A DNA stretch of 64,000 nt from the human T2T-CHM13v2.0 reference genome, Homo sapiens. Each line of letters begins with the position of its first letter. The first letter of the stretch is position 1. The stretch lies in assembly GCF_009914755.1 (NCBI RefSeq), contig NC_060935.1; one strand, written 5' to 3'. Below the pieces are notes generated by a model. That model was not told where the DNA came from. It searched no databases and saw only the letters and a program-made list of their open reading frames with translations. Below are positions 1 to 11,880 of this stretch, piece after piece. The position numbers and the translations under genes were made by a program.

Positions 1-3000
1 GAAGCGCTGAACATGGAAAGGAACAACCGGTACCAGCCACTGCAAAATCATGCCAAAATGTAAAGACCATTGAGACTAGGAAGAAACTGTATCAACTAAC
101 GAGCAAAATAACCACTTAACATCATAATGACAGGATCAAATTCACACATAACAATATTAACTTTAAATGTAAATGGACTAAATGCTCCAATTAAAAGACA
201 CAGATTGGCAAATTGGTTAAAGAGTCAAGACCCATCGGTGTGCTGTATTCAGGAAACCCATCTCACAGGCAGAGACACACATGGGCTCAAAATAAAAGGA
301 TGGAGGAAGATCTACCAAGCAAATGGAAAACAAAAAAATGCAGGGATTGCAATCCTAGTCTCTGATAAAACAGACTTTAAACCAACAAAGATCAAAAGAG
401 ACAAAGAAGGCCATTATTTAATGGTAAAGGGATCAACTCAACAAGAAGAGCTAACTATCCTAAATATATATGGACCCAACACAGGAGCACCTAGATTCAT
501 AAAGCAAGTCCTGAGTGACCTACAAAGAGACTTAGACTCCCACACGTTAATAATGGGAGACTTTAACACCCCACTGTCAACATTAGACAGATCAATGAGA
601 CAGAAAGTCAACAATGATACCCAGGAATTGAACTCAGCTCTGCACCAAGTGGACCTAATAGACATCTACAGAACTCTCCACCCCAAATCAACAGAATATA
701 CATTTTTTTCAGCAACACACCACACCTATTCCAAAATTGACCATATACTTGGAAATAAACCTCTCCTCAGAAAATGTAAAAGAACAGAAATTATAACAAA
801 CTGTCTCTCAGACCACAGTGCAATCAAACTAGAACTCAGGATTAAGAATCTCACTCAAAACCACTGAACTACATGGAAACTGAACAACCTGCTTCTGAAT
901 GACTACTGGGTACATAACGAAATGAAAGCAGAAATAAAGATGTTCTTTGAAACCAATGAGAACAAAGACACAACGTACCAGAATCTCTGGGACACATTCA
1001 AAGCAGTGTGTAGAGGGAAATTTATAGCACTAAATGCCCACAAGAGAAAGCAGGAAAGATCCAAAATTGACACCCTAACATCACAATTAAAAGAACTAGA
1101 AAAGCAAGAGCAAACACATTCAAAAGCTAGCAGAAGGCAAGAAATAACTAAAATCAGAGCAGAACTGAAGGAAATAGAGACACAAAAAACCCTTCAAAAA
1201 ATTAACGAATCCAGGAGCTGGTTTTTTGAAAGGATCAACAAAATTGATAGAAAGCTAGCAAGACTAATAATGAAAAAAAGAGAGAAGAATCAAATAGACG
1301 CAATAAAAAATGATAAAGGGGATATCACCACCGATCCCACAGAAATACAAACTAACATCAGAGAATGCTACAAACACCTCTACGCAAATAAACTAGAGAA
1401 TCTAGAAAAAATGGATAAATTCCTCGACACATACACCCTCCCAAGACTAAACAAGGAAGAAGTTGAATCTCTGAATAGACCAATAACAGGCTCTGAAATT
1501 GTGGCAATAATCAATAGCTTACCAATGAAAAAGAGTCCAGGACCAGATGGATTCACAGTCGAATTCTACCAGAGGTACAAGGAGGAACTGGTACCATTCC
1601 TTCTGAAACTATTCCAATCAATAGAAAAAGAGGGAACCCTCCCTAACTCATTTTATGAGGCCAGCATCATTCTGATACCAAAGCCGGGCAGAGACACAAC
1701 CAAAAAAGAATTTTAGACCAATATCCTTGATGAACATTGATGCAAAAATCCTCAATAAAATACTGGCAAACGGAATCCAGCAGCACATCAAAAAGCTTAT
1801 CCACCATGATCAAGTGGGCTTCATCCCTGGGATGCAAGCCTGGTTCAATATACACAAATCAATAAATGTAATCCAGCATATAAACAGAACCAAAGACAAA
1901 AACCACATGATTATCTCAATAGATGCAGAAAAGGCCTTTGACAAAATTCAACAATACTTCAGGCTAAAAACTCTCAATAAATTAGGTATTGATGGGACAT
2001 ATCTCAAAATAATAAGAGCTATCTATGACAAACCCACAGCCAATATCATATTGAATGGGCAAAAACTGGAAGCATTCCCTTTGAAAACTGGCACAAGACA
2101 GGGATGCCCTCTCTCACCACTCCTATTCATCAGAGTGTTGGAAGTTCTGGCCAGGGCAATTACATAGGAGAAGGGAATAAAGGGTATTCAATTAGGAAAA
2201 GAGGAAGTCAAATTGTCCCTGTTTGCAGACGACATGATTGTATATCTAGAAAACCCCATTGTCTCAGCCCAAAATCTCCTCAAGCTGATAAGCAACTTCA
2301 GCAAAGTCTCAGGATACAAAATCAATGTACAAAAATCACAACCATTCTTATACACCAACAACAGACAAACAGAGAGCCAAATCATGAGTGAACTCCCATT
2401 CACAATTGCTTCAAAGATAATAAAATACCTAGGAATCCAACTTACAAGGGACGTGAAGGAACTCTTCAAGGAGAACTACAAACCACTGCTCAAGGAAATA
2501 AAAGAGGATACAAACAAATGGAAGAACATTCCATGCTCATGGGTAGGAAGAATCAATATCGTGAAAATGGCCATACTGCCCAAGGTAATTTACAGATTCA
2601 ATGCTGTACCCATCAAGCTACCAATGACTTTCTTCACAGAATTGGAAAAAAACTACTTTAAAGTTCATATGGAACCAAAAAAGAGCCCTCATCGCCAAGT
2701 CAATCCTGAGTCAAAAGAACAAAGCTGGAGGCATCACACTACCTGACTTCAAACTATACTAAAAGGCTACAGTAACCAAAACAGCATGGTACTGGTACCA
2801 AAACAGAGATATAGATCAATGGAACAGAACATAGCCCTCAGAAATAACACCACATTTCTACAACTATCTGATCTTTGAGAAACCTGAGAAAAACAAGCAA
2901 TGGGGAAAGTATTCCCTATTTAATAAATGGTGCTGGGAAAACTGGCTAGCCATATGTAGAAAGCTGAAACTGGATCCCTTCCTTACACCTTATACAAAAA

Positions 3001-4155
3001 TCAATTCAAGATGGATTAAAGACTTAAACGTTAGACCTAAAACCATAAAAACCCCAGAAGAAAACCTAGGCATTACCATTCAGGACATAGGCATGGGCAA
3101 GGACTTCATGTCTAAAACACCAAAAGCAATGGCAACAAAAGCCAAAATTGACAAATGGGATCTAATTAAACTAAAGAGCTTCTGCACAGCAAAAGAAACT
3201 ACCATCAGAGTGAACAGGCAACCTACAAAATGGGAGAAAATCTTCGCAACCTACTCATCTGATAAAGGGTTAATATCCAGAATCTACAATGAACTCAAAC
3301 AAATTTACAAGAAAAAAACAAACAACCCCATCAAAAAGTGGGCAAAGGACATGAACAGACACTTCTTAAAAGAAGACATTTATGCAGCCAAAAAACACAT
3401 GAAAAAATGCTCACCATCACTGGCCATCAGAGAAATGCAAATCAAAACCACAATGAGATACCATCTCACACCAGTTAGAATGGCAATCATTAAAAAGTCA
3501 GGAAACAACAGGTGCTGGAGAGGATGTGGAGAAATAGGAACACTTTTACACTGTTGGTGGGACTGTAAACTAGTTCAATCATTGTGGAAGTCAGTGTGGC
3601 GATTCTCAGGGATCTAGAACTAGAAATACCATTTGACCCAGCCATCCCATTACTGGGTATATACCCAAAGGGCTATAAATCATGCTGCTATAAAGACACA
3701 TGCACACATATGTTTATTGCGGCATTATTCACAATAGCAAAGACTTGGAACCAACCAAAATGTCCAACAATGATAGACTGGATTAAGAAAATGTGGCACA
3801 TATACAGCATGGAATACTATGCAGCCATAAAAAATGATGAGTTCATGTCCTTTGTAGGGACATGGATGAAATTGGAAATCATCATTCTCAGTAAACTATC
3901 GCAAGAACAAAAAACCAAACACTGCATATTCTCACTCATAGGTGGGAACTGAAAAATGAGAACACATGGACACAGGAAGGGGAACATCACACTCTGGGGA
4001 CTGTTGTGGGGTGGGGGGAGGGGGGAGGGATAGCACTGGGAGATATACCTAAGGTTAGATGACGAGTTAGTGGGTGCAGCGCACCAGCATGGCACATGTA
4101 TACATATGTAACTAAACTGCACATTGTGCACAGGTACCCTAAAACTTAAAGTATA
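1..4155 (+). mobile_element. LINE-1, L1PA2/L1PA3-like; end of ORF1, disrupted ORF2 and 3'UTR; 5' part runs off the window
   Basis: ORF1 stop at 61-63, ORF2 ATG at 127, EN/RT/Cys-domain peptides in the ORF track. 3'UTR 'gggagatatacctaa..gatgacgagttagtgggtgcagcgcacc'. No poly(A) after 'aaaacttaaagtata'. Confidence 0.97.
127..3952 (+). pseudogene. Disrupted L1 ORF2 (endonuclease/reverse transcriptase)
   Basis: Broken into fragments 127-867, 922-1716, 1727-2167, 2213-2746, 3093-3617, 3584-3952 by stops (TGA 865-867, TAG 2165-2167) and frameshifts. FADD motif present. Confidence 0.95.
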
Positions 4156-4165
4156 TATATACAAA

Positions 4166-10799: not shown

Positions 10800-10862
10800 T
10801 ATGATGTTAAGTGGTTATTTTGCTCGTTAGTTGATACAGTTTCTTCCTAGTCTCAATGGTCT

Positions 10863-11880
10863 TTACATTTTGGCATGATTTTGCAGTGGCTGGTACCGGT
10901 TGTTCCTTTCCATGTTCAGCGCTTCCTTCAGGAGCTCTTTTAGGGCAGACCTGGTGGTGACAAAATCTCTCAGCATTTGCTTGTCTGTAAAGTATTGTAT
11001 TTCTCCTTCACTTATGAAGCTTAGTTTGGCTGGATATGAAATTCTGGGTTGAAAATTCTTCTCTTTAAGAATGTTGAATATTGGCCCCCACTCTCTTCTG
11101 GCTTGTAGAGTTTCTGCCAAGAGATCTGCTGTTAGTCTGATGGGCTTCCCTTTGAGGGTAACCCGACCTTTCTCTCTGGCTGCCCTTAACATTTTTTCCT
11201 TCCTTTCAACTTTGGTGAATCTGACAATTATGTGTCTTGGAGTTGCTCTTCTCGAGGAGTATCTTTGTGGCGTTCTCTGTATTTCCTGAATCTGAACGTT
11301 GGCCTGCCTTGCTAGATTGGGGAAGTTCTCCTGGATAATATCCTGCAGAGTGTTTTCCAACTTGGTTCCATTCACCCCGTCACTTTCAGGTACACAAATG
11401 AGATGTAGATTTGGTCTTGTCACATAGTCCCATATTTCTCGGAGGCTTTGTTCATTTCTTTTTATTCTTTTTTCTCTAAACTTCCCTTCTCGCTTCATTT
11501 CATTCATTTCATCTTTCATCACTGATACACTTTCTTCCAGTTGATCACATCAGCTCCTGAGGCTTCTGCATTCTTCATGTAGTTCTCGAGCCTTGGTTTT
11601 CAGCTCCATCAGCTCCTTTAAGCACTTCTCTGGATTGGTTATTCTAGTTATCCATTCGTCTAAATTTTTTTTCAAAGTTTTTAACTTCTTTGCCTTCGGT
11701 TTGAATTTCCTCCTGTAGCTCAGAGTAGTTTGATTGTCTGAAGCCTTCTTCTCTCAACTCATCAAAGTCATTCTCCGTCCAGCTTTGTTCCATTGCTGGT
11801 GAGGAACTGTGTTCCTTTGGAGGAGGAGAGGTGCTCTGCTTTTTAGAGTTTCCCGTTTTTCTGCTCTGTTTTTTCCCCAT
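10863..11880 (-). pseudogene. Disrupted L1 ORF1 (RNA-binding protein)
   Basis: MGKKQSRKTGNSK.. (11644-11880) and ..NRYQPLQNHAKM (10863-11522), separated by a frameshift at the T-run near 11665-11672. Confidence 0.93.

What the first reader, a model, noticed from the sequence alone, without database searches (positions are those of the whole stretch)
1..10925. Two apparently independent L1s in inverted orientation show patchwork homogenisation, suggesting arm-to-arm gene conversion
Seen: position x of the + L1 pairs with about 10926-x of the - L1 (1/10925, 127/10799, 4155/6771). Both copies carry the same non-consensus changes. In the endonuclease these are about 14 substitutions versus the recalled ORF2p consensus (C48G, R53G, K71N, V74I, I98L, I104T, A116G, T157M, K163N, A175V, P197T, S210N, A212P, S215R). 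Further along: MQAWFN, QQYFRLK, LFIRVLE, SQPFL, SKII, KELF, GKYS, VQSLW, PKGYK. Near-identical tracts (about 1-200, 240-845, 2180-2575; the antisense ORFs 2188-2469 and 8456-8737 translate identically) alternate with diverged tracts (about 204-238, 848-955, much of 2580-3370, and the 3'UTR). In the diverged tracts the + copy looks younger (aagaatctc, ggcattacc, gagttagtgg..gcgcacc) and the - copy older (aagaaactc, ggcaatacc, gctaaatgac). Inference: two separate insertions later exchanged sequence repeatedly through intrachromatid hairpin pairing, like a miniature palindrome built from transposons.
Basis: partly seen in the sequence, partly recalled or inferred. Interest (0 to 1): 0.8.

Follow-up and report, generated by a model that had tools for sequence, protein, structure and literature searches.

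The report
Two inverted L1s exchanging sequence
Two separately inserted, oppositely oriented L1 retrotransposons on human chromosome 11 have repeatedly copied stretches of sequence from one to the other, so that they behave like a small home-made palindrome; the process itself (gene conversion between nearby repeats) is already known.

Summary
Window 1-4155 (+) and 6771-10925 (-) are the 3' two-thirds of two full-length L1PA elements lying tail to tail around a 2.3-kb AT-rich tract. They differ at 139 of 4155 columns. The differences are clustered: 0.24% in six homogenised tracts against 5.1% in the diverged ORF2 tracts and 11-12% in the last 436 bp.

Sequence fetched upstream of the window indicates independent insertions. 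The + L1 sits inside a 42-bp minisatellite with a 12-bp target-site duplication. The - L1 sits in AT-rich DNA with its own poly(A). Homology stops at the L1 ends. Only the - L1 keeps the 128-bp 5'UTR element that is lost in younger subfamilies.

In homogenised tracts the arms share derived, often non-conservative changes. Three of four test k-mers were exact only in these two arms genome-wide. There the arms are sisters (100/100) on a long shared stem. In diverged tracts each arm carries its own subfamily's alleles (16 sites, none reversed), and all disabling lesions are private.

Hairpin pairing is not shown, and an assembly artefact could not be tested. This is a new example of a known process.

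The parts
1..4155 (+). In-window 3' part of the + L1 (end of ORF1, ORF2, 3'UTR). The element is full length and starts about 1.85 kb upstream of the window (L014 position 8149).
   Evidence: EN domain matches human L1 ORF2p 8sxt_A at E 8.7e-149. The upstream continuation aligns to the - L1. The 5' end was read.
4166..4177 (+). 3' copy of the + L1 target-site duplication AAGTATTGCCTC. The 5' copy is at L014 8134-8145, just before the L1 5' end.
   Evidence: Read directly. The minisatellite phase restarts 12 bp early after the L1; the array ends at L014 8145.
4166..4480 (.). Remainder (7.5 units) of the 42-bp minisatellite into which the + L1 inserted.
   Evidence: TRF. The same unit fills L014 12-8145 with 194 copies.
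4481..6744 (.). AT-rich spacer between the two L1 tails (GC 2-10%), internally self-complementary at low identity.
   Evidence: inverted matches I7-I25.
6745..12916 (-). Full-length - L1 with its own A-rich tail (6745-6775) and a 5' end at 12916. It is flanked on both sides by AT-rich DNA.
   Evidence: ORF2 pieces were translated.
6771..10925 (-). Arm of the - L1 that pairs with window 1-4155.
12007..12134 (-). 128-bp 5'UTR segment present in the - L1 and absent from the + L1. Its position matches the 129-bp ZNF93-site element lost between L1PA3 and L1PA2/1.
   Evidence: Gap of 128. Panel copies split into with and without. Position and history come from passages of PMC5860796.
12917..13640 (.). 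AT-rich flank at the 5' end of the - L1, similar to the spacer. The - L1 therefore split one AT-rich tract.
   Evidence: BLAST matches of 72-78% to 4820-5600.
1..204 (+). Homogenised tract, partner 10722-10925. It continues upstream to about -600.
   Evidence: 0 differences. Together with 238-848 and the upstream part it holds 27 shared-derived sites.
238..848 (+). Homogenised tract (endonuclease), partner 10078-10688.
   Evidence: 2 differences. The - arm is the best non-self hit genome-wide (1094 bits against 1008 or less, 97%). The 36-mer at 740-775 is found only in the two arms within 2 mismatches.
849..953 (+). Diverged tract, partner 9973-10077.
   Evidence: 7 differences in 105 bp and no shared-derived site.
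954..1198 (+). Homogenised tract, partner 9728-9972.
   Evidence: 0 differences.
1199..1854 (+). Diverged tract, partner 9071-9727.
   Evidence: 27 differences; 6 shared-derived, 9 + private, 11 - private, 7 subfamily-level.
1855..2137 (+). Homogenised tract (RT), partner 8788-9070.
   Evidence: 1 difference and 4 shared-derived sites. The 28-mer at 1945-1972 is exact only in the two arms, out of 909 matches within 2 mismatches.
2176..2577 (+). Homogenised tract, partner 8348-8749. It is the longest identical run.
   Evidence: 0 differences in 402 bp. It spans 167 polymorphic columns.
2578..3367 (+). Diverged tract, partner 7559-8347.
   Evidence: 43 differences and 2 shared-derived sites. All 39 non-self hits are other genomic copies at 97%, against 94.6% for the - arm, which is not among the 40 scored.
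3368..3719 (+). Homogenised tract, partner 7206-7558.
   Evidence: 2 differences and 3 shared-derived sites.
3720..4155 (+). Strongly diverged ORF2 end and 3'UTR, partner 6771-7205.
   Evidence: 49 differences in 436 bp; 0 shared-derived, 7 + private, 27 - private, 15 subfamily-level.

Best explanation
Two full-length L1PA elements of different subfamilies inserted independently, tail to tail and about 2.6 kb apart. A younger type without the 128-bp 5'UTR element went into a 42-bp minisatellite (+ strand). A somewhat older type with that element went into the adjoining AT-rich tract (- strand). After both had accumulated roughly 1.5-2% of random decay, stretches of about 0.25-1.4 kb were copied non-reciprocally from one element into the other several times.

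Most copying went from the younger + element into the - element. Some may have gone the other way. The likely route is homologous repair of breaks using the inverted partner on the same chromatid or on the sister chromatid as template. The result is six near-identical tracts, alternating with tracts that still show each element's own subfamily alleles and private decay. The last 436 bp escaped exchange and are now too diverged to pair.

Shown: independent insertion sites, the mosaic, shared derived alleles, the lack of reciprocal swaps. Inferred: the repair pathway, the direction of individual events, and the dates.
For: (1) Independent insertion. The 42-bp array (194 copies) ends at L014 8145, immediately before the + L1 5' end, and resumes at window 4166 with the 12-bp AAGTATTGCCTC duplicated. 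The - L1 has its own A-rich tail and AT-rich DNA on both sides. Arm homology stops at the L1 termini.

(2) Different subfamilies. There is a 128-bp 5'UTR indel that also splits the 29-copy panel and lies where the ZNF93-site element was lost between L1PA3 and L1PA2/1 (PMC5860796 passages). Of 32 sites diagnostic between the two panel groups, 16 have the short-type allele in + and the long-type allele in -, 12 are short/short, 4 long/long and 0 reversed.

(3) Mosaic. Divergence is 5/2097 (0.24%) against 81/1589 (5.1%). The runs test on shared-derived versus differing sites gives 41 runs against 80.6 +/- 5.1, with 0 of 20000 shuffles as low. A GENECONV-like permutation agrees.

(4) Shared post-insertion decay. 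There are 51 shared-derived nucleotide sites, 41 of them in homogenised tracts. There are 26 shared rare residues among 1275 codons, several non-conservative in the RT domain. The 36-mer with 4 such alleles has no other genomic match within 2 mismatches. The 28-mer and the 32-mer are exact only in the two arms. The - arm is by far the closest genomic relative of + 238-848.

(5) Trees. In homogenised columns the arms are sisters at 100/100 on a stem of 0.02, with tips of 0.001, nested in the short-type clade (98/92). In diverged columns + lies in the short-type clade (93/98) and - lies outside it with the long-type copies.

(6) All four stops and three frameshifts of the + arm, and both stops and two frameshifts of the - arm, are private.
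Against: The AU test does not reject a tree that holds the two arms together in the diverged columns (lnL difference 12.5, p-AU 0.27).

One of the four k-mers tested (2448-2472, 2 shared alleles) is exact at 26 other genomic places. Individual alleles of the 32-mer also occur elsewhere. So part of the 'shared rare' set is recurrent or lineage polymorphism.

Six shared-derived sites lie in diverged tract 1199-1854. These need either small or old exchanges or lineage alleles.

No GC bias was seen: weak-to-strong versus strong-to-weak was 18:21 in shared sites and 41:59 in private sites, p 0.70. The TSD of the - L1 cannot be recognised in the low-complexity flank. No read-level or second-haplotype check of the assembly was possible. 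The four long/long diagnostic sites could reflect an intermediate + source rather than transfer from - to +.
Confidence: 0.85

Rival explanations
1. One L1 was copied by an inverted segmental duplication (palindrome formation). The arms then diverged and were partly re-homogenised.
For: The arms are inverted and collinear over the whole 6 kb. A few shared-derived sites lie in the diverged tracts (6 in 1199-1854, 2 in 2578-3367). The AU test cannot reject a sister relation there (p 0.27).
Against: Homology ends at the L1 termini on both sides. The flanks differ: a 42-bp minisatellite with a 12-bp TSD against AT-rich DNA. The tails are separate. The 128-bp indel and 16 diagnostic sites follow known subfamily lines. 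In 2578-3367 all 39 non-self hits are other copies closer to the + arm than the - arm is. There are 0 shared-derived sites among 49 differences in 3720-4155.
Confidence: 0.05
2. There was no exchange. Both copies come from the same unusual source lineage, and the shared variants are lineage markers.
For: The 25-mer at 2448-2472 occurs exactly in 26 other copies. Single alleles of the 32-mer recur elsewhere.
Against: The multi-allele haplotypes are unique to the pair. The next-best genomic copy for 238-848 is 97%, against 99.7% between the arms. Many shared residues are non-conservative at positions nearly invariant in 72-120 panel proteins. A common source cannot give 0.24% and 5.1% divergence in alternating blocks, nor opposite subfamily alleles in the diverged blocks.
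Confidence: 0.03
3. The mosaic is an assembly or polishing artefact: reads from one arm were used to correct the other.
For: Nothing direct. The locus has inverted 6-kb repeats beside an extreme AT-rich tract and a long minisatellite, which is hard sequence.
Against: Isolated single differences persist inside homogenised tracts (5 in 2097 bp). Tract limits are irregular. Each arm abuts unique-type flanks within reach of long reads. The last point is an inference; it was not tested here.
Confidence: 0.04
4. One element was born chimeric, by template switching between L1 RNAs or by a new cDNA annealing to a resident L1. No later exchange took place.
For: The - L1 is a patchwork of short-type and long-type alleles.
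Against: This does not explain shared derived, non-conservative changes that are unique to the two neighbours. It does not explain the 2% shared stem with near-zero tips. Both elements are full length with their own ends.
Confidence: 0.02

Closest known systems
Arm-to-arm gene conversion in human Y-chromosome palindromes (Hallast et al. 2013, PMC3723533; outline and abstract read)
   Same: Inverted arms separated by a spacer. Non-reciprocal transfer in tracts of hundreds of bp to kb. Crossover (inversion) products are rare or absent; here there are 0 reversed diagnostic sites.
   Different: The arms here were not made by duplication; they are two independent transposon insertions of different subfamilies. 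Overall identity is 96.7%, not above 99.9%. Only about half the length is homogenised. The locus is autosomal and intronic. No GC bias was detectable, whereas the abstract reports GC bias for P6.
Homogenisation of neighbouring Alu elements by non-allelic gene conversion (Zhi 2007; Aleshin & Zhi 2010; seen only as cited in passages and the reference list of PMC3670932)
   Same: Independently inserted retrotransposon copies that lie close together exchange sequence after insertion.
   Different: These are 6-kb L1s rather than 300-bp Alus. This is a single locus resolved tract by tract rather than a genome-wide correlation. I did not read those two papers.
Gene conversion among LINE-1 copies (Tremblay, Jasin & Chartrand 2000, seen as a citation; an intrachromosomal L1 conversion proposed at locus NCLI34 in Sen et al. 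2007, PMC1920257 passages)
   Same: An L1 copy serves as repair template for another L1 copy.
   Different: Those are single events, experimental or inferred, with distant donors. Here the exchange between one fixed pair of neighbours is repeated and may run in both directions.
L1 twin-priming inversion
   Same: Adjacent L1 sequence in opposite orientations.
   Different: Twin priming gives non-overlapping parts of one element within one TSD pair. Here two complete elements cover the same 6 kb and have separate insertion sites. Tested here and not met.
Palindromic AT-rich repeats (PATRR) of 11q23 (recalled, no call)
   Same: An AT-rich, partly self-complementary tract on distal 11q.
   Different: The spacer here is only 70-78% self-complementary, and its centre does not coincide with the L1 symmetry centre. 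I did not test any relation to the known PATRR11.

Membership tests
LINE-1 (L1PA) insertion by target-primed reverse transcription | ORF2 with APE-type endonuclease and reverse transcriptase homologous to human L1 ORF2p | tested here: met
   The + arm EN matches 8sxt_A at E 8.7e-149. Relatives of the RT piece carry PF00078 and relatives of the EN piece carry PF03372/PF14529.
LINE-1 (L1PA) insertion by target-primed reverse transcription | Target-site duplication flanking the element | tested here: met
   For the + L1, a 12-bp AAGTATTGCCTC lies at L014 8134-8145 and at window 4166-4177. For the - L1 the result is inconclusive in AT-rich flanks.
LINE-1 (L1PA) insertion by target-primed reverse transcription | 3' poly(A) tail | tested here: met
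   The - L1 has an A-rich tail at 6745-6775. The + L1 has only a short degenerate A/T-rich remnant at 4152-4165.
Non-allelic gene conversion between repeats | Alternating near-identical and diverged tracts beyond chance | tested here: met
Non-allelic gene conversion between repeats | Different tree positions for different tracts | tested here: met
   The arms are sisters at 100/100 in homogenised columns and lie in different groups in diverged columns. Genome-wide hit ranks are opposite for the two kinds of tract. The AU test on diverged columns is not significant (p 0.27).
Non-allelic gene conversion between repeats | Shared derived alleles that are not family polymorphisms | tested here: met
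   3 of 4 k-mers are exact only in the two arms. 1 of 4 is also present in 26 other copies.
Non-allelic gene conversion between repeats | Non-reciprocal transfer (no swapped alleles) | tested here: met
   0 of 32 diagnostic sites are reversed.
Non-allelic gene conversion between repeats | GC-biased outcome (frequent, not defining) | tested here: not met
   18:21 against 41:59, Fisher p 0.70. Numbers are small.
Palindrome formed by inverted duplication | Arm homology extends into non-repeat flanks; single origin of both arms | tested here: not met
   Homology stops at the L1 ends and the flanks differ. Subfamily differences are shown.
Shared L1 sub-lineage | The shared variants occur together in other genomic copies | tested here: not met
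.
Twin-priming L1 inversion | Two non-overlapping parts of one element inside one TSD pair | tested here: not met
   Both elements are full length and overlap over about 6 kb.

The most novel reading that the evidence does not exclude
Two unrelated transposon insertions have created a self-maintaining autosomal palindrome. A fragile AT-rich spacer supplies breaks, and the arms repair from each other so often that the homogenised tracts are younger than about 1-2 Myr. These tracts may still differ between living human haplotypes. The arm tip that abuts the AT-rich tract and cannot be repaired from its partner has become a local mutation hot zone: 6.2% private changes against 2.2% elsewhere in that element. 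If general, close inverted L1 pairs would be a class of recombination and mutation hotspots seeded by transposition.
Probability: 0.25. Interest if true: 0.6.

Novelty: new member of a known kind. Interest (0 to 1): 0.4.

Why it matters
The locus shows, tract by tract, that two independent L1 insertions of different ages can enter concerted evolution simply by landing close together in opposite orientation. This has three consequences.

First, divergence-based ages and subfamily calls for such copies are unreliable. The - element would be dated differently in every tract.

Second, inverted L1 pairs are live recombination substrates inside genes; here they lie in introns of long NXPE2 and NXPE4 transcripts. 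They are therefore candidate sites for inversion or breakage.

Third, complete assemblies now allow the same analysis genome-wide and across haplotypes.

The process itself is established, so this is an instructive example rather than a new principle.

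Tried and rejected

(b) A scan of bacterial genome contigs for contaminant L1 copies gave only 5 loci at 59-69% protein identity. These were useless as close outgroups.

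(c) The whole-arm DNA search of the genome did not list the - arm among its 40 scored candidates. Such lists are therefore not exhaustive. I relied on exact pattern counts and on shorter tract searches instead.

(d) No TSD could be called for the - L1.

(e) There was no GC bias.

(f) APOBEC-type editing as the cause of the - arm's diverged tip was rejected. The 25 private substitutions there include only 4 G>A and are about half transversions.

(g) An older-subfamily origin, or a surviving donor, for that tip was rejected. The older L1 at 15635-17786 carries the + allele at 17 of 20 such sites. The best genomic relatives are only 92-93%. 18 of the 19 fetched are closer to the + arm; the 19th aligned to another part of the element.

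(h) Comparing the first 600 bp of both 5'UTRs with six other 5'UTRs was uninformative, because that panel had been chosen with the - element.

(i) Reciprocal double crossover (two inversions) was rejected as the cause of the mosaic, since no diagnostic site is swapped.

(j) Six literature searches of the open library found no paper describing arm-to-arm conversion between a pair of inverted L1s. Subscription-only papers are not covered.

Full report
**What is there.** The window is T2T-CHM13 chr11:114638001-114702000. Inverted-repeat search finds six collinear arm pairs joining 1-4167 to 6759-10925. Complementarity falls from 99% at the outer end to 84% at the inner end. Between the arms lie 7.5 units of a 42-bp minisatellite (4166-4480) and a 2.3-kb tract of 2-10% GC. 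The + arm encodes an L1 endonuclease that matches human ORF2p (8sxt_A) at E 8.7e-149. The - element runs on to a recognisable L1 5' end at 12916 and is followed by another AT-rich tract.

**The pairing is cut by the window, not by biology.** I fetched the 10 kb upstream. The + element continues there. Window 12009-6759 aligns to -1076..4167 at 96.5% over 5256 bp, and 12907-12132 aligns to -1845..-1071 at 92%. A 128-bp segment is present only in the - element. Both are therefore full-length L1s lying tail to tail.

**Independent insertions.**
- Upstream of the + L1 the 42-bp minisatellite runs for at least 194 copies and stops at L014 8145, directly before the L1 5' end.
- The array resumes after the + L1 at window 4166. 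The 12 bases AAGTATTGCCTC are present on both sides, so the repeat phase restarts 12 bp early. This is a target-site duplication.
- The - L1 has its own A-rich tail (6745-6775) and AT-rich DNA on both sides. Its TSD cannot be recognised in that low-complexity sequence.
- Apart from low-complexity AT-rich matches, no arm homology extends beyond the L1 termini.
- The 128-bp indel lies where a 129-bp 5'UTR sequence holding the ZNF93 site was lost between L1PA3 and L1PA2/L1PA1, according to passages of PMC5860796.
- Among 29 other L1 copies fetched from the same genome, copies with and without the segment both exist.

**The mosaic.** The arms differ at 139 of 4155 columns. Six tracts (1-204, 238-848, 954-1198, 1855-2137, 2176-2577, 3368-3719) hold 5 differences in 2097 bp (0.24%). 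The four ORF2 tracts between them hold 81 in 1589 bp (5.1%). The last 436 bp hold 49. A uniform rate predicts 0.0002 gaps of 403 bp or more. The result also holds when only the 2082 columns that vary among arms plus panel are used. The longest concordant run (167 sites) is reached in 15 of 10000 permutations, and the sum of the three longest (415) in none.

**Polarising the differences.** I classified each column against the 29-copy DNA panel, without building any consensus sequence. This gave four classes:

| Class | Sites |
|---|---|
| Shared-derived (both arms carry a base seen in 10% or less of the panel) | 51 |
| + private | 73 |
| - private | 75 |
| Both alleles common in the panel | 64 |

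Shared-derived sites sit in the homogenised tracts: 27 in -600..848, 4 in 1855-2137, 4 in 2176-2577 and 3 in 3368-3719. The diverged tracts have few: 0 of the sites in 3720-4155, 2 in 2578-3367 and 6 in 1199-1854. Along the element the two kinds of site form 41 runs where 80.6 +/- 5.1 are expected, with 0 of 20000 shuffles as low.

The protein level agrees. Against 284 of 360 fetched primate L1 ORF2 fragments, 26 of 1275 codons carry a residue shared by both arms but present in 5% or less of the panel. A further 22 are rare in the + arm only and 37 in the - arm only. Several are non-conservative changes at positions almost invariant in the panel, which suggests decay rather than a working lineage. 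All stops and frameshifts are private: four stops and three frameshifts in the + arm, two stops and two frameshifts in the - arm.

**Are the shared alleles a sub-lineage?** Mostly not.

| k-mer (window) | Shared alleles | Genome-wide result |
|---|---|---|
| 36-mer, 740-775 | 4 | Only the two arms, even with 2 mismatches allowed |
| 28-mer, 1945-1972 | 2 | Exact only in the two arms, of 909 places within 2 mismatches |
| 32-mer, 466-497 | 3 | Exact only in the two arms, of 344 places within 2 mismatches |
| 25-mer, 2448-2472 | 2 | Exact in 28 places, 26 of them elsewhere |

The 25-mer result means that part of the shared set is ordinary recurrent or lineage polymorphism.

For tract 238-848 the - arm is the best non-self hit in the genome (1094 bits). 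The next copies reach 1008 bits and 97%. For diverged tract 2578-3367 all 39 non-self hits are other copies at 97%. The - arm (94.6%) is not among the 40 scored. These lists score only 40 candidates and are not exhaustive; one search missed the - arm altogether.

**Subfamily alleles and direction.** Panel copies fall into a short type, like the + arm and lacking the 128 bp, and a long type, like the - arm. At the 32 sites that separate the two groups:
- 16 have the short-type allele in + and the long-type allele in -.
- 12 have the short-type allele in both arms.
- 4 have the long-type allele in both arms.
- None is reversed.

The exchange was therefore non-reciprocal, which excludes paired crossovers. 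It ran mostly from + to -. The four long/long sites are compatible either with some transfer from - to + or with an intermediate + source.

**Trees.** On the 2097 homogenised columns the arms are sisters (100/100) on a stem of 0.02, with tips of 0.0013 and 0.0007, nested in the short-type clade (98/92). On the 2025 diverged columns the + arm lies in the short-type clade (93/98) and the - arm lies outside it among long-type copies. However, holding the arms together costs only 12.5 log-likelihood units, and the AU test does not reject it (p 0.27).

**Dates (inference).** Private load in unconverted ORF2 tracts is about 1.5% for + and 2.2% for -. With the roughly 0.17% per Myr that I recall being used for L1PA dating, this suggests about 9 and 13 Myr. 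That fits a late L1PA3/L1PA2-type element and an L1PA3/4-type element. The 0.24% between homogenised tracts would put the last exchanges within about 1 Myr. The subfamily names and the rate are recalled, not computed.

**Mechanism.** The data require repeated, non-reciprocal, homology-guided copying between the arms. With a 2.6-kb spacer, break repair using the partner on the same or the sister chromatid is at least as likely. That the AT-rich spacer supplies the breaks is a plausible but untested idea. No GC bias was detected.

**Unexplained.** The - arm's last 436 bp carry 27 private derived changes, against 35 in 1589 bp in its other unconverted tracts (p 2e-6) and 7 in the + arm's counterpart.
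- The spectrum is mixed and is not APOBEC-like.
- The alleles are derived, not older-subfamily states.
- No donor copy was found.
- The block begins abruptly where homogenised tract 3368-3719 ends, and it abuts the AT-rich spacer.

**Comparison with what is known.**
- Arm-to-arm conversion is well described for Y-chromosome palindromes (PMC3723533, outline and abstract).
- Homogenisation of neighbouring Alus is described in work I saw only as citations in PMC3670932.
- L1-to-L1 conversion appears in passages and the reference list of PMC1920257.

Six searches of the open library found no description of a pair of inverted L1s evolving in concert. Papers outside that library were not searched.

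**Verdict.** This is a clear new example of a known process. Not tested: read-level support for the assembly, other human haplotypes, and ape orthologues.

Noticed in passing
L014 12-8145 (chr11 upstream of the window) and window 4166-4480: A 42-bp minisatellite of at least 194 copies, interrupted by the + L1. The unit contains its own short inverted repeat (GGGTAAC...GTTACCC). A partial inverted copy of the unit lies at about 4775-4815 inside the AT-rich tract.
   Followed up: partly
window 6771-7205: The tip of the - L1 beside the AT-rich spacer has about three times the private mutation load of the rest of that element (27 in 436 bp against 35 in 1589 bp, p 2e-6). The spectrum is mixed and no donor copy was found.
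   Followed up: partly
window 27668-29763: An L1 3' fragment on the - strand (27668-29025) is joined to an inverted upstream L1 segment on the + strand (29025-29763). It has the look of a twin-priming inversion.
   Followed up: no
window 15635-17786: An older L1 3' half on the - strand, 86% identical to the - L1. It was used here as an outgroup.
   Followed up: partly
window 205-237: Four arm differences (three + private, one - private) lie within 33 bp inside an otherwise homogenised 1.4-kb tract. This could be an unconverted patch or a mutation cluster.
   Followed up: no
L007 (G000:C2:134499578-134499993): A chromosome 2 locus matches at 79% across both the - L1 5' end and its AT-rich flank. 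It may be another L1 in AT-rich DNA, or it may be low-complexity similarity.
   Followed up: no
L001-L005: Five short contigs in bacterial genome assemblies encode mammalian L1-like reverse transcriptase at 59-69% identity to this ORF2. They are probably host-DNA contamination of those assemblies.
   Followed up: no
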